Source of the DNA: Malacoraja senta | Taxonomy: Eukaryota | Direction: 5' to 3' | Assembly (NCBI GenBank): GCA_038087875.1 | Contig: CM075978.1 | Location: 43,338,001-43,402,000 of the forward strand | Length of the DNA stretch: 64,000 bases | Part shown: piece after piece, positions 9,001-18,000 of the stretch | How positions within the stretch are numbered: the first letter of the stretch is position 1 | Layout of the letters: each line of letters begins with the position of its first letter | Position numbers: made by a program

Positions 9001-12000
9001 GTTCATTGTTGCAATAGGCAGTGCATTAAATAGCAAGAATAAACTTGTGGATAGGAGTGCACATATTTGTTTTATTAAGTATAGTTGCATTGAAAATGGC
9101 ATCTCTCGCAGGTGATAAGGGATGCTTTGCTGATGCAACTTGTCAGAAAACAAATGCATCCATCTGTTTGCAGAAGGCAATCATATTTTACATTTTCAGT
9201 AAATTACATTAAAAAATAAATATTCAGACTACATATAAACACTACAATGGAAATGCTGCATGTTAATATACCTGCTAAGAGAATCTGAAAATAACCAAAG
9301 CAAATATTATTTGATTTTCTTTTGAAGGTTATAGGATATTTTTGTGAGAATATGTTCTGGTAAATTTGGAAACTGGTTCCTTCTGGAAGCATACTGGATT
9401 CAAGCTTGGTTCTTCCTGATATATAATTAGATGTAGAAAAGCTGATGTGGCCAAGATGAATGTAATTGCTGCACTCGTCTGTCTTTTGAGACCATTGCAC
9501 TAGCTCACATCAGCAAAGTCACAGAGTAACATGCTGAAGTGTAGAATTTCTAAACAAATATTTATTTCAGAATTGCAATTGGATACTGTGTGAACCTTTG
9601 ATTAGCCCACAGATTATTTAGACAAGTAGAGGCGTTGAATAACTTGTGACTATTTTCAAATAAATTGTAAAATTCTTTCAAATAACCAGAACAGTGACCA
9701 TGTTTTATAGTTTTAGCATCTACTAGGTAGACTAAGTGGGACCCGTTGGGTCCCAGTCACATGGGAGAGGCCTGGTCCCCCAATGCAACACATTCCCCAA
9801 CGCAATATTCCACCACTCACCCATAGCCCCTAACTGCGCAGGCGCGGTTCAATTCCCCTCATCCCCGAGCACTCCCTCCCCCTCCTCTTCATGTGTGGGA
9901 GGGGAGAAGGGGAGGGTGGAAGGGAAGTGGGGTGTGTGGCGGGGGGGGGGGGTGGGGTGGGATTGGGGAGGAGGGGTGTGTGGACTGGGTAGTGTAGGAT
10001 GGGGAGAGGGTGGTGTGGGGGAGGGGGGTGTGGGGGAGAGGGGTTGTGAGGTGGGAGGGAAGTGTGTATGTGGGTTGGAGGGGTTGTGGGGGCGGGGGGT
10101 TGTGGGGGCGGGGAGGGGGGTGTGGGGGCGGGTGTTGGATTGTGGGGCAGGGGGTTGGATTGTGGGGCAGGGGGTGTGTGGGCGGCAGAGTGTGTGTGGG
10201 CGGCAGAGTGTGTGTGGGGTGTGTGTGGGGGGGTTTGTGTGGGGGTGTGTGTGGGCGGGGGTGTGTGTGTGGGCAGGGGGTGGGCAGGCGGGCTTGTGGG
10301 GGGGAGGGGTGTGTGGGCAGGGGGGGAGTTGTGGGGGGAGGGGTGTGAGGGCGGGGTGGGAATAAACTCAGAGAAAAGACAGGGGCATCACGGGGAGGGG
10401 GGCCAGAGGGCTAGTGGCTGGAATTGGCGGTGCGATGGGGACTCACAGCGGGCGCTGGTCGTTCTCCTCTGCCGGGATCAGAGTCTCCGCTTTCCATTTG
10501 GCGACATCAGCGACGTCTCTGACTCCGGGCTGGACTGGGTCTCTGACTGGGCTAAATCTCCCACACTGAGCTGGGCTGGGTCGGGTCTCCGATGTTGGGC
10601 TGCTGCTTGGGGCGGTGCTGGGCTGCTTGCGGCTGGGCTGCGCTGCTTCGGGCCCCTCCGAAAATCCGGTTGGAAACATCCACCGACACTCTCAGCTCCA
10701 GTAATGACGTGATGGCGCATGAAGGGGCAACCGTCCCGGGAGTGACAGGTGAAGAGACTAATCTGCGCAGCGCCGACTGGCAGGAAAAGAGATCGATCTG
10801 CGCACGTGCGGTTTATAAGATTTTTAAACTTCGCTAACTTTTACGACATTCAACCGATCGGAACGAAATTTGGCGCACTTGCAGCACAGTAGAACGGCGA
10901 GTGAACTGCCAAAAAATCGTAACACTATCGCGAACTGTTTTTGTACAATTTGGAAGACCGCCAAACCGGAAGATAACAAGATCAGAGTTTTAGTTACGTA
11001 TATATGTAACAGAAGCTTTATTTAGAAATTATTGCACATAATTTTCTGCAAAGGAATGGTACTTTCAAATAGAATTACCATTATTTAGCCTTTGAAATGG
11101 TGGGAAACCTTGTAATGCACTATATTGCTGCTACTCTGATCTTTCTGTGTGACAACTGCCGTGTATTCTTTCAGGACACACCGCGTCGATTCCTGTGACA
11201 TCTTACTGAAATCCCCCAGAATTACTCCGGTAAACCTTTACCAGTTTAATCCAAGACCAGTAATATCAGTGAAAATTTGTAGGATAGCGGATATTGAACA
11301 AAGGGGCAGATAAGTTTCTGTTTGTAGAATAATTATATTTATGTTTAGATTAATGTTTTCATTTTGTTTGGAAGTTTAACAACTAATTATAAAGCAGTTT
11401 TAAATTGTATCTCTGGGTTTGCAGCTGGCAAAGCTGAGAATAGGGCTTAGTTGGCTGTAAGACTTACAAAAAGAAGGGTTATTATTGGCAGTGATGGAAG
11501 TGTAGTTCTTTCAGAACGTTGATGTGGGGGCAGGAGAAGATTTGTCGTGGAGTTTGGAAATGATGGAAGGTAATCCACTGAATGTGAAAACTAGCAGCAT
11601 GGAAGAAGATGAGAAGAGTAATTCTATTCTTGTTCTTGGTGATGCAGAAGGGCTTAAAGAAGAACAAGAACAGAATTCGAGGCAGTAGGGAGCTCTGAGA
11701 GGAATCCATGGGTGAAGAAAAATGTCAGAGGCACGGATGGGAAAAATAATTTGTCAGGAGATGCAATAGAGTCAGTGAAATGGAGGGAATGAGTATACTT
11801 AGGGAAGTACAATGGAAGAAAGTCTTTAATTGTCATGCAACGTGAAATTTTACTTCGGAGTCACGTGAGTGACTACGTGAAGAACCCCGCCAGTGCGCCT
11901 GCACGTCATTACGTCAGACGCCTTGACGCAAACGGACGCGAGGAGCAGTGCTCCTCGAGTGGTTTGTAGTTTTTCAACTACAAGGTAAGTAAAAACTTTT

Positions 12001-15000: not shown

Positions 15001-18000
15001 CCTACACAGCCATGGTATCCGTTGATATTAGAATTAACAACACAAATGTTGATGAAAGTCCCAAAAAAGAGTAATTTATTGCTGCACCCTGTACAGGGGA
15101 ACAACATCCATTATATGATCGTTTGGATTTGTTGATTTGCAGGTTTTAAGAATGCCTTTTCTGGGACGAGGACTGTCTGAGCATACTGTGGACATGCTTA
15201 CGGCAGTCTGGAGGAAGAGCACTCAAAAACAGTACCTTTCTTATATTAAGAAATGGGAAGAGTTCTGGGTACAAAAGAATGTGCAATAAAGTACTGCAGA
15301 TATATCAAATGTTTAGAATTTCTGTCAAAACTTTATTATGATGAAGGTCTGAGTTGTAGTGCAATTAATTCAGCCAGAAGTGCATTGTCCTCGTATTTGG
15401 TTCTGGATTCAGAAAGAAACTCAATTGGGTCACACCCAATTGTTTCCAGACTAATGAAAGGAATCTTTAATTCCAAACCACCGAAACCTAGGTACGTGAC
15501 AATCTGGGATGTAAGTGTGGTACTGAAACTACTTCGTGATGGTCATCAAGTGTGTCTTTACCTTTGGTCAAGCTCAGTATGAAAGTATTCATGTTTATGG
15601 CATGAGTGACAGCACAATGAGTGCAAACACTTGGAGAATTACAAATAGACAGTATGGAAGTAACTGAAGACAAGGTTACATTCTATATCTATGACCTACT
15701 AAAACAAATTAGGCCAGGTGTGACAGGATTTAAAATTATGCTGGCAGCATATCCAAATGATCCATGTCTCTGTATGAAGACATATTTATTACAATACATT
15801 GAGGTCACAAAGAATTTGAGAATACGGAAACTGGGTTTTTGATCACACACAAGAAACCACACAAGAGAGTTTCAATACAGACTATCTCCAGATGGATAAA
15901 AGAAGTCTTAACAGCTGCTGGTATTAACACTTATGTTTTTACGTCTCACTCGACTAGGGCAGCAGAAATGTCGGCGGCCAGGGCAAAAGACGGCCCCGTC
16001 GACCATATCCTCGCAGCCTCGTGGTCCAATGAGTTGATGTTTCAACATTTTTACCATCGGCCTATTGTTAACGCGGGGCTGTTTGCAGAAACTATTTTAA
16101 GTTCTGTGTAAATTCCTCTGGTTTAAAGGGGATCTGATTCATTTCATTATTGAAATGAATTACTGCATTTGTGGTACAAATGTTATTATGAATGCATGAT
16201 TGATTATTCTCGTTCCGAGTCAATCTATGCAGTGAGAAGCCGGGATTGATCCACGGCATGAAATCACAAAGCTTTAAAATCTTCACGTAGTCACTCACGT
16301 GACTCCGAAGTAAAATAGTAAGATTAAACGAGAACTTACCTAAGTTTGAAGTTTGATCTTTATTTTATGAGGAGTTACGTAGGTGATTATGTGCCCACCA
16401 CGACCCTACCCTCTATCATAAAGGTCAGATGGAAGTTCTTGTCTTACTCGTTTTAGTATGAGACTATATTACTTCGGTTGTTGTTTTTTGTGATTTCACA
16501 CCGCTGCTTTGTAGATTGACGCGCAGGCGCACTGGCGGGGTTCTTCACGTAATCACCTACGTAACTCCTCATAAAATAAAGATCAAACTTCAAACTTAGG
16601 TAAGTTCTCGTTTAATCTTACTATTCTTGCTGCAGCTTAACAGATCCAGAATCAAAATAATACACAGATAATATATAATAATCAATATTTGTTGTGTTCA
16701 AGTGCCCGATGATGGTTGGGAAGAAGCTGATCTTGAACCTTATGGTCAAGGTTTCCAGACTCCTGCACCTTGTCCCTGCTGATAGTTGCAAAATGAGAGC
16801 ATGGCTAGGGTGGTGTAGATTGTTCATGATATTGGCTGCCCTTTTAAGACAGCACCATGGTATAAGAAAGATGTCAAGCTGGAAAGGGTGCAGAGAAGAT
16901 TTACTAGGATGTTTCCAGGACTCGAGGGCCTGAGTTCTAGGGAGAGGTTGAGCAGGCGAGGATTTTATTCCTTGGAGAGTAAAAAGAGGAGGGGTGATCT
17001 TATAGAGGTGCGCAGAATCATGAGAGGAATAGATCGGGTAGATTAGAGGAATCAAGTACCAGAGGACATGGGTTTAAGGTGAGGGAGGGAAAGATTTAAG
17101 AGGAACATACCAGAGGAGGTAAACATCTGGTTCAGTGTGAGGGGAAAAAAAGCACAGAACAGTCATCAATTAACTGAAGAAACTTAAACAGGACTGAACC
17201 CCAGATGAATTCCCATAGTTACGATTCGGAGTGAGTGAATGGAATTAAAGAAAAATGTTTTCAATGACAGAATATTCAACCAGATGAAGCAGATGGAGGC
17301 AGATGAAAATTGGTTGGGGAATTTCACATAATGAAAGAAGTTAGTGATGCCAGTATTTTGCTGCCCGTGGTGAAAATTAGCCTGTTGTGACCAGAAAGTT
17401 GGAAATTGGACCAGAGTGCCAGTAATGTCACAGATGGAGGTGTGAATTGACTTGGCAAACAGAGAAAGTATATATTTATGATAGGGAGGAATTGTCTGAA
17501 GTGAGGTGACCACCAGGAAATCCAGCTTGTGGATCTTGGAGATGAGATGGAAGTGGACTGTGCATGATTGTATGACTATTATTTTAGAGGCTCTAGAGTG
17601 ATGATTTCCAGAGGAAATGAGTTACAGTCTCTCTGAACTCTGTCATCTTACTTCAGACACTCTTTCCACTCCTCTTTCATCGTACCTTAACATTTTTGGT
17701 TTTCTAACCTTCCATGTTCAGTTTTGGATCATCTACCTAAAATATGAACTTTTTTTCCTTCTTTGTCTAACTACTTCCATCATTTAAAGACACAGTGCTG
17801 GGGTAACTCAGCAGTCAGGCAGCATCTCTGGAGAACAAGAATAGGTGATGTTTTGGGTCAGGACCCTTCAGAGCCTGAAGAAGGGTACCAACTGAAACCT
17901 CATTTAGCCATGCTCTCCAGGGAGGTTGCATGACCTACTGAGATCCAGCACCAGCATCTGCAATTCCTTGTATCTACTTCCATCACTTTCTGTATTCTTC

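What the first reader, a model, noticed from the sequence alone, without database searches (positions are those of the whole stretch)
11847..16625. Complete DIRS terminal architecture: perfectly paired ends around heavily decayed ORFs
Seen: ICR 16280-16315 is the exact reverse complement of 11848-11883; ICR 16316-16389 is the exact reverse complement of 16550-16623; 16517-16551 pairs with 11874-11908 with one mismatch. Yet RT, RNase H and YR contain several frameshifts and stops. Established: DIRS ends are regenerated from the ICR during reverse transcription into a circle. Inference: this copy was probably mobilised in trans after its ORFs had already decayed (or the ends were homogenised by conversion), implying a recently active helper.
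Basis: partly seen in the sequence, partly recalled or inferred. Interest (0 to 1): 0.65.

Follow-up and report, generated by a model that had tools for sequence, protein, structure and literature searches.

The report
Young but coding-dead DIRS retrotransposon copy
This is an ordinary member of a known class of jumping genes (DIRS1-like retrotransposons) whose end sequences are still almost perfectly matched although its genes are broken, which hints, without proving it, that it was copied with the help of proteins from an intact relative.

Summary
Window 11847-16625 (+) is a 4,779-bp DIRS1-like tyrosine-recombinase retrotransposon with gag-like, RT, RNase H, methyltransferase and YR regions. 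It has a 62-nt left and a 109-nt right inverted terminus. A 114-nt internal complementary region (ICR) is the reverse complement of both tips, overlapping on AAT, and ATT lies at both ends.

Its genes are broken. RT to YR carries about 8 frameshifts and 3-4 stops, and gag is also fragmented.

The paired terminal set has 2 mismatches in 152 columns, both of CpG-transition type.

The claim that the copy was mobilised in trans after decay is only partly supported. A conditional test gives P from 0.0002 to 0.38, centrally 0.01-0.03. A comparison with the second copy is not significant. Sibling copies could not be reached.

A second, older copy without detectable RT/RNase H lies at 21682-25927 (-). 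Its ICR is 95.5% identical to copy 1, against 65% in coding sequence. No break coincides between the two copies.

The architecture, the ATT junction and trans-action are already in print. This is a new member of a known kind.

The parts
11847..16625 (+). Copy 1: complete DIRS1-like retrotransposon, 4,779 bp, bounded by ATT at each end. One of the two ATTs belongs to the target under the published model.
11847..11908 (+). Left terminus (62 nt). [quoted passage not shown]
12035..12936 (+). Gag-like first gene, broken. It survives only as open pieces of 60-73 aa. Similarity to the N-terminal parts of relatives is weak (about 30-36%). It contains a diverged tandem duplication with a period of about 133 nt at 12285-12541.
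   Evidence: No Pfam family matched.
12946..15146 (+). Pol gene (RT, RNase H, Dam-type methyltransferase), broken by 3-4 frameshifts and 1 stop against the two closest references. The RT core itself lies within one open frame.
   Evidence: RVT_1 E 1.7e-22; RVT_3 E 0.0016; MT piece 45% identical to the Dam region of P0124.
15150..16105 (+). Tyrosine recombinase gene (start approximate), broken by 3-4 frameshifts and 2-3 stops. One frame change at the pol/YR border could be a natural ORF boundary.
   Evidence: (pieces 55-60% identical to the SAM-like and Phage_integrase regions of P0001, including an HSTR motif).
16280..16393 (+). Internal complementary region. The left ICR is 16280-16316 (37 nt) and the right ICR is 16314-16393 (80 nt). 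They overlap on the circular-junction triplet AAT at 16314-16316.
16517..16625 (+). Right terminus (109 nt): conserved ITR 16517-16551, divergent ITR 16552-16577, right extension 16578-16625 (48 nt). The extension is complementary to the right ICR only.
   Evidence: The hairpin of right ICR with right terminus has z -19.6.
21682..25927 (-). Copy 2: an older, divergent DIRS1-like copy of 4,246 bp with the same ATT ends. Its ICR is at 21908-22020. Only the C-terminal part of MT and the YR are recognisable (22269-23475), and they are broken. No RT or RNase H is detectable. The 5' 2.4 kb is unidentified and holds internal tandem repeats.

Best explanation
Copy 1 is a structurally complete but coding-dead copy of a DIRS1-like tyrosine-recombinase retrotransposon.

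The mechanism below is taken from the published DIRS-1 model. It is not shown here.
- The transcript lacks the outermost parts of both termini.
- After reverse transcription the missing ends are rebuilt by annealing to, and copying from, the ICR. This gives a circle whose junction is right end-ATT-left end.
- The element's recombinase then crosses this ATT with an ATT in the genome. The inserted copy is therefore flanked by ATT on both sides, with no target duplication.
- Each new copy is thus born with ICR and termini perfectly complementary. Mismatches accumulate afterwards like a clock.

Copy 1 shows 2 CpG-type mismatches in 152 columns, so it is a fairly young insertion. Copy 2 shows 9 of 151 and is older.

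Copy 1 nevertheless carries about 8 frameshifts and 3-4 stops from RT to YR, plus a fragmented gag. The most likely reading (an inference) is that at least part of this damage was already present in the transcribed source copy. That copy would have been reverse-transcribed and integrated by proteins supplied in trans by an intact relative recognising the same termini and ICR.
For: Identity:
- Pfam RVT_1 matches.
- Relatives carry RVT_1, Dam and Phage_integrase domains.
- The MT and YR pieces are 45-60% identical to those domains.

Architecture:
- The ITR, ICR and AAT junction are present.
- ATT lies at both ends in 2 of 2 copies, with no longer duplication.
- The four-way 10-mer occurs 5 times in the window, all at ITR/ICR borders, against 0.11 expected.
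- The geometry (27/35/48, ICR 37-80) is close to the mollusc entries of Table 3 in PMC3266345.

Age and decay:
- 2 of 152 mismatched columns, both CpG-type.
- Window CpG o/e is 0.44.
- The aligner control gave 0 false calls with 5 of 5 references.
- The conditional test is centrally about 0.01-0.03.
- Frameshifts are not linked to homopolymers.

Feasibility of trans action:
- DIRS-1 RT acts in trans on a truncated element (PMC7192593, passages read).
- TOC1 is called a non-autonomous DIRS retrotransposon (PMC9940879, passage read).
- Cis regions are far better conserved than coding between the two copies: ICR 95.5% and right terminus 91.6%, against 65%.
Against: - The test is sensitive to its assumptions. 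P reaches 0.1-0.38 with no CpG rate excess, an indel:substitution ratio of 0.2 or the minimal break count.
- 2-3 of the 3-4 stops are TGA codons, which CpG decay can create quickly.
- The comparison of mismatches against breaks in copy 1 and copy 2 is not significant (p 0.19-0.42).
- None of the breaks coincides with a break in copy 2 (0 coincident with 4 of 4 references).
- The closest relatives' proteins read on past the end of the long open frame (8 of 8). No break is therefore shown to be inherited.
- No intact DIRS gene set lies in the window.
- In Dictyostelium the truncated element did not complete a full cycle (PMC7192593).
Confidence: 0.5

Rival explanations
1. Copy 1 was autonomous and intact when it inserted. 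All breaks are ordinary decay after insertion, and the terminal pairs are simply too short to register it.
For: - The paired set is only 285 sites and already shows 2 CpG-type changes.
- P is 0.1-0.38 under several parameter sets.
- The comparison with copy 2 is not significant.
- No break is shown to be shared with anything.
- 2-3 of the 3-4 stops are TGA codons.
- Third codon positions differ twice as much as first and second positions between the two copies (0.54 against 0.27 and 0.23). The lineage was therefore under protein-level selection for most of its history.
Against: With CpG sites mutating 5-10 times faster and an indel:substitution ratio of 0.05-0.1, 2 mismatches are too few for 8-11 breaks (P 0.0002-0.03). 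No non-CpG mismatch and no indel occurs in the 285 paired sites.
Confidence: 0.33
2. Most frameshifts are assembly indel errors, and the real copy is much less damaged.
For: The window is a scaffolded assembly with two N runs. Read-level data were not available.
Against: Only 0-1 of 3-11 inferred frameshifts lie near a homopolymer of 5 or more, against a background of 8% of positions. The 3-4 in-frame stops and the fragmented gag cannot come from indel errors. The long terminal pairs contain no indel.
Confidence: 0.07
3. The copy is old, and its ICR and termini were kept or made identical after insertion by gene conversion between the short inverted segments.
For: None directly.
Against: - The tracts are 37 and 80 nt, inverted, and lie in three separate places.
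- The left and right ITR tips stay only 87-90% alike while each matches its own ICR half. Templating from the ICR predicts this pattern; general homogenisation does not.
- Copy 2 shows that pairs in this genome do decay (9 of 151 columns).
Confidence: 0.03
4. The near-identical ICR and termini of the two divergent copies reflect a recombinant origin. One subfamily would have captured the other's ICR by template switching, after which both ends follow automatically.
For: The ICR is 95.5% identical against 65% for coding and 68% just upstream of the ICR. Both ends are copied from the ICR under the published model (PMC7192593).
Against: The spacer between the ICR and the right terminus is only 77.6% identical, and the inner left terminus is lower still. 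This gives a mosaic rather than one exchanged block, which fits selection on cis sites better.
Confidence: 0.07

Closest known systems
DIRS1-like elements of molluscs (LgDIRS1, LgDIRS3, AcaDIRS1, AcaDIRS2; Table 3 of PMC3266345, table text read)
   Same: - The ATT start, ATT end and AAT circular junction are the same.
- No long ORF overlap is reported for them.
- The size is similar: 4,680-5,808 bp against 4,779 bp here.
- The terminal geometry is almost the same. They show divergent ITR 30-36, conserved ITR 31-36, right extension 48-49 and ICR 39-45/86-88. Copy 1 shows 27, 35, 48 and 37/80.
- The named protein relatives of the RT are all invertebrate.
   Different: - No sequence comparison with these elements was possible, because no accession or DNA was at hand. 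The likeness rests on the table's numbers alone.
- The best protein identity to any relative is 70% over half of the open frame.
- The host here may be a ray-finned fish (a lead), not a mollusc.
Dictyostelium DIRS-1 (PMC7192593, abstract and passages read)
   Same: - Inverted non-identical terminal repeats.
- An ICR exactly complementary to the outer ends of both: 33+55 nt there, 37+80 nt here.
- Gag, RT, RH, MT and YR.
- The ICR was shown there to be essential, and the RT to act in trans.
   Different: In DIRS-1 the YR ORF overlaps pol and the ITRs are about 300 bp. Here the order is pol then YR, with 62 and 109-nt termini. Nothing was tested experimentally here.
Teleost DIRS1-like elements (GaDIRS1, GaDIRS2, TnDIRS1a; Table 3 of PMC3266345)
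   Same: They belong to the same superfamily and have the same parts.
   Different: They have GTT ends with an AAC junction, a conserved ITR of 144-148 nt, a right extension of 26-27 nt and long ORF overlap. Copy 1 has ATT/AAT, 35 nt and 48 nt. No fish protein appears among the 240 listed relatives of the RT.
TOC1 of Chlamydomonas, a non-autonomous DIRS-order element (PMC9940879, one passage read)
   Same: It is a precedent for a DIRS-order element that moves without its own proteins.
   Different: TOC1 belongs to the PAT-like branch with split direct repeats (recalled, not checked here). Copy 1 still carries recognisable, recently decayed genes. That it belongs to a family sharing defects is not shown.

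Membership tests
DIRS1-like superfamily (order DIRS) | Reverse transcriptase and RNase H | tested here: met
   RVT_1 matches at E 1.7e-22, above the gathering score. RNase H rests only on a weak RVT_3 match (E 0.0016, below the cut-off) and on collinear alignment to relatives.
DIRS1-like superfamily (order DIRS) | Methyltransferase domain downstream of RT/RH | tested here: met
   One open piece is 45% identical (E 2e-36) to residues 509-628 of P0124, whose Pfam Dam match spans 504-606. No direct Pfam match was found in the window's own piece.
DIRS1-like superfamily (order DIRS) | Tyrosine recombinase instead of a DDE integrase | tested here: met
   Two open pieces are 55-60% identical to the SAM-like and Phage_integrase regions of P0001, and an HSTR motif is present. 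No direct Pfam match was found. The gene is broken.
DIRS1-like superfamily (order DIRS) | Inverted terminal repeats, non-identical | tested here: met
   62 and 61 nt are 87% complementary, and the inner 35 nt have 1 mismatch.
DIRS1-like superfamily (order DIRS) | An ICR made of two halves, complementary to the start of the left and the end of the right terminus, overlapping on a 3-bp circular junction | tested here: met
   37/37 and 79/80 columns pair, overlapping on AAT at 16314-16316. The same holds in copy 2.
DIRS1-like superfamily (order DIRS) | The element begins and ends with the trinucleotide complementary to the junction, with no target-site duplication | tested here: met
   ATT lies at both ends in 2 of 2 copies, with no longer direct repeat in the flanks. 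No empty site was available to confirm it.
Ngaro / PAT-like (split direct repeats) | Split direct repeats A1...B1-A2-B2 instead of ITR plus ICR | tested here: not met
   The direct-repeat scan of 11000-17500 gave no terminal direct repeats. It found only a 27-nt, 85% family caused by the shared box.
Non-autonomous DIRS derivative mobilised in trans | Several copies at different sites share the same disabling changes, and an intact partner has matching termini and ICR | not testable with these tools
   - No sibling lies in the window.
- No protein above 70% identity was found.
- Copy 2 shares 0 breaks with copy 1.

The most novel reading that the evidence does not exclude
The two DIRS copies belong to subfamilies whose coding parts are only 65% identical, with third codon positions near saturation. 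Their ICR is nevertheless 95.5% identical, and the 37-nt left tip of copy 1 is identical to the left ICR of copy 2. One of the two lacks RT and RNase H altogether.

This would fit a shared cis module (ICR plus tips plus the four-way 10-mer box) that lets one protein set mobilise several subfamilies, including gene-poor derivatives. That would be an autonomous/non-autonomous parasitic network among DIRS elements in an animal genome.

It would also be a lineage with mollusc-type termini living in what may be a fish.
Probability: 0.25. Interest if true: 0.5.

Novelty: new member of a known kind. Interest (0 to 1): 0.27.

Why it matters
As it stands, the finding is a clean textbook example of DIRS terminal architecture. 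It is useful for annotation and gives a small internal clock for dating single copies.

If the trans-mobilisation reading were confirmed with sibling copies, it would document natural non-autonomous propagation of DIRS1-like elements in an animal. That has been inferred for few YR retroelements. It would also show which nucleotides of the ICR and termini are held constant across subfamilies, that is, the likely cis-recognition sites.

Tried and rejected
- **Sibling copies.** A blastn of the element against the window found only copy 2. Two protein searches with the long RT open frame found nothing above 70% identity and no copy of the open frame itself. The sibling test therefore failed for lack of data.
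- **Shared breaks between copy 1 and copy 2.** 0 coincided with 4 of 4 references.
- **The closest relatives' proteins.** All 8 read on past the end of the long open frame, so no shared truncation was seen.
- **Homopolymer test for assembly error.** It was negative.
- **Calibration against copy 2.** It was not significant.
- **Empty-site search with the flanks, each taken apart.** Copy 1's left flank and copy 2's high-side flank match nothing. The other flanks match dispersed repeats only.
- **Rfam.** It gave 0 matches.
- **Host identification.** Two Atlas look-ups gave no usable taxon. One neighbouring LINE-like frame points to teleosts. This is a lead only.
- **RT in copy 2.** No tblastn hit better than E 0.075 with all the proteins fetched up to then, and no Pfam match.
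- **Split direct repeats (Ngaro/PAT).** None were found.
- **Print search for non-autonomous DIRS.** 2 papers held one of 5 phrases; one was listed and is also held as PMC9940879. 6 papers held the three terms, and none of the passages read describes a non-autonomous DIRS1-like element of animals.
- **Not seen or not usable.** Supplementary tables, for example those of PMC9210276 and PMC3266345, were closed and may list such cases. One search was an empty script.
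Full report
**1. Observation**

- 16280-16315 against 11848-11883: 36/36.
- 16316-16389 against 16550-16623: 74/74.
- 16517-16551 against 11874-11908: 1 mismatch in 35.

The exact matches are slightly longer than stated. One runs 37 nt (16280-16316 with 11847-11883) and the other 76 nt (16314-16389 with 16550-16625). The second extends to 80 nt with one mismatch.

The two ICR halves overlap on AAT (16314-16316). The element starts and ends with ATT.

Chance cannot give this. 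The longest exact inverted repeat in 11000-17500 is 76 nt, against at most 20 in 30 shuffles. The contiguous 3' 346 nt fold, as single-stranded DNA, into a hairpin of right ICR with right terminus, z-score -19.6.

**2. What it is**

The plus strand between the termini encodes, in order:
- a gag-like region with no Pfam match;
- RT (RVT_1, E 1.7e-22);
- an RNase H-like stretch (weak RVT_3, E 0.0016);
- a Dam-type methyltransferase, one piece of which is 45% identical to the Dam region of P0124;
- a tyrosine recombinase, pieces of which are 55-60% identical to the SAM-like and Phage_integrase regions of P0001, with an HSTR motif.

Among the 240 listed relatives of the RT open frame, many carry PF00078 with PF05869 and/or PF00589. 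This is the DIRS1-like gene set.

In the nomenclature of PMC3266345 (passages and Table 3 read), the termini divide as follows.
- The left terminus is 62 nt: divergent ITR 27 nt, conserved ITR 35 nt.
- The ICR is 37 + 80 nt.
- The right terminus is 109 nt: conserved ITR 35, divergent ITR 26, right extension 48.

The 10-mer at the border of the two ITR parts occurs 5 times in the 64-kb window, against 0.11 expected. All 5 lie at ITR or ICR borders of the two DIRS copies. That paper describes such a four-way conserved box.

No split direct repeats were found, so this is not Ngaro or PAT-like.

**3. State of the genes (counts only)**

I wrote a protein-to-DNA aligner that allows frame changes and reported only scores, counts and outer bounds. 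As a control it frameshifts and 0 stops inside the one long open frame, with 5 of 5 references.

| Region | Reference(s) | Frameshifts | Stops |
|---|---|---|---|
| RT-RH-MT | P0121 (55% identical) | 4 | 1 |
| RT-RH-MT | P0124 (48% identical) | 3 | 1 |
| RT to end of YR | P0026, P0101 | 8 | 3-4 |
| RT to end of YR | P0001, P0037 (more distant) | 11 | 9-12 (partly alignment noise; P0001 also spans part of gag) |

By segment:
- end of RT: 1 frameshift;
- RH: 0-1 frameshift and 0-1 stop;
- MT: 2-4 frameshifts;
- YR: 3-4 frameshifts and 2-3 stops.

One frame change at the pol/YR border could be a natural ORF boundary. The gag-like region exists only as open pieces of 60-73 aa. Its relatives are too distant to count breaks well.

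**4. A second copy**

Window 21682-25927 (-) has the same design.
- It has ATT at both ends.
- Its ICR is at 21908-22020, with the same junction.
- Its terminal pairs are 36/37, 75/79 and 31/35.

It keeps only the C-terminal part of MT and the YR, and both are broken. No RT or RNase H is detectable. Its 5' 2.4 kb holds internal tandem repeats.

The table gives the identity of copy 2 to copy 1 by region.

| Region | Identity |
|---|---|
| Coding (1,141 aligned nt) | 65.4% |
| Upstream of the ICR | 68% |
| ICR | 95.5% |
| Spacer | 77.6% |
| Right terminus | 91.6% |
| Left terminus | 83.9% |
| 5' leader | 66.7% |

The left ICR of copy 2 is identical to the 37-nt left tip of copy 1.

In the shared coding part, mismatch shares by codon position are 0.27, 0.23 and 0.54. 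The two lineages therefore diverged mostly under selection on the proteins. None of their breaks coincides (0 with 4 of 4 references).

**5. How it most likely works**

The published model comes from PMC7192593 (abstract and passages) and PMC3266345 (passages).
- The transcript lacks the outer ends.
- The ICR serves as the template that restores them and defines a circle junction.
- The recombinase crosses the junction triplet with the same triplet in the genome.

What the window shows directly agrees with this. Each tip matches its ICR half far better than the two tips match each other (100% and 99% against 87-90%). ATT flanks 2 of 2 copies, with no longer duplication. Nothing here tests the mechanism itself.

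**6.

Under the model, ICR/terminus and conserved-ITR pairs are perfect at insertion.

Copy 1 has 2 mismatched columns of 152. Both have a CpG to TpG signature, in a window with CpG o/e 0.44 and TG/CA excess. Copy 2 has 9 of 151.

I asked whether 2 mismatches are too few if all breaks arose after insertion. I used a conditional binomial test with target sizes taken from the sequence:
- 285 paired sites, 40 of them in CpGs;
- 5.4% of single substitutions create stops;
- 5 CGA codons;
- 2-3 of the 3-4 stops are TGA.

P ranges from 0.0002 to 0.38 across CpG rate excess of 1-10, indel:substitution ratio of 0.05-0.2 and 6-11 breaks. With excess 5-10, ratio 0.1 and 8 breaks, P is 0.01-0.03.

Against this, a Fisher test of mismatches against breaks in copy 1 and copy 2 gives p of 0.19-0.42.

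Assembly error is unlikely as the main cause. Only 0-1 of 3-11 frameshifts lie near a homopolymer of 5 or more, against a background of 8%, and stops are not indel artefacts.

The balance favours some damage before insertion, and hence trans-mobilisation, but weakly. I put it at about one half, with plain decay after insertion at about one third.

**7. What stayed unchecked**

- **Sibling copies, intact helpers, insertion polymorphism and junction reads.** The genome collection holds bacteria and archaea only and was not scanned. The protein collection holds nothing closer than 70% identity.
- **Supplementary tables of the papers.** They were closed.
- **The host.** It is not established. A neighbouring LINE-like open frame is 66-85% identical to proteins named from teleosts, while the named relatives of the DIRS RT are all invertebrates.
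- **The two N runs.** They were located only.

**8. Comparison and novelty**

Every structural feature is in print:
- ITR, two-part ICR and 3-bp junction;
- ATT as the commonest triplet;
- the right extension and the four-way box (PMC3266345);
- the ICR being essential, and RT acting in trans (PMC7192593);
- families with interrupted ORFs in Xenopus (PMC9210276, passages);
- a non-autonomous DIRS-order element, TOC1 (PMC9940879, one passage).

The terminal geometry is nearest to the mollusc entries of Table 3 and unlike the teleost entries. This is therefore a new member of a known kind.

The one point a specialist might find worth following is the very high conservation of the ICR and tips between two otherwise divergent subfamilies, one of which lacks RT.

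Noticed in passing
21682-25927 (-): A second, older DIRS1-like copy with complete termini and ICR but no detectable RT or RNase H. Its ICR is 95.5% identical to that of copy 1, while coding sequence is 65% identical.
   Followed up: yes
30509-31099 (-), 32075-32869 (+), 43765-44994 (+), 56244-57257 (+): Four further open frames with Pfam RVT_1 that the DIRS proteins did not hit, so they belong to other retroelements. The one at 43765-44994 is 66-85% identical to proteins named from teleost fishes.
   Followed up: partly
20127-20900 (-): An open frame with a weak DUF659 match (E 8e-5, below the cut-off) and Atlas neighbours of the BED/hAT-transposase kind. It is probably a hAT-like transposon remnant lying between the two DIRS copies.
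   Followed up: partly
11984-11990, 16598-16605; copy 2 25806-25812 (-) and its right extension: GGTAAGT, which looks like a consensus splice donor (the label is recalled), lies shortly after the left terminus and again in the right extension, in both copies. Its complement is consequently in the right ICR. Its function is unknown.
   Followed up: no
16575-16580 (+): AATAAA lies 45 nt before the right end. It would place RNA 3' ends inside the right extension, as the model needs. The motif is common, with 113 matches in the window, so this is weak evidence.
   Followed up: partly
12285-12541; 25422-25704; 24013-24303: Diverged internal tandem duplications lie in the 5' (gag-side) parts of both copies. 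Periods are about 133 nt in copy 1 (77% identical) and about 147 nt in copy 2 (82%), and there are shorter repeats.
   Followed up: no
whole window: CpG o/e is 0.44, with TG and CA at 1.23-1.24, which is the signature of a CpG-methylating genome. The two DIRS copies are somewhat less depleted, at 0.55 and 0.65.
   Followed up: yes
21246-21672: The flank of copy 2 is 66-87% identical to five other places in the window (5586-5892, 32362-32716, 46627-46736, 51032-51203, 56589-57013), and a 41-nt piece of it matches a sixth (40135-40175). It is therefore part of a dispersed repeat related to the RT-bearing element at 56244-57257.
   Followed up: partly
36036-36235, 49810-50296: Two N runs of 200 and 487 bases. 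They were left as they are.
   Followed up: no
10001-12000, 34001-36000, 52001-54000: There are stretches with strong G-over-C skew (0.29-0.37) in 2-kb windows. The first adjoins the left flank of copy 1.
   Followed up: no
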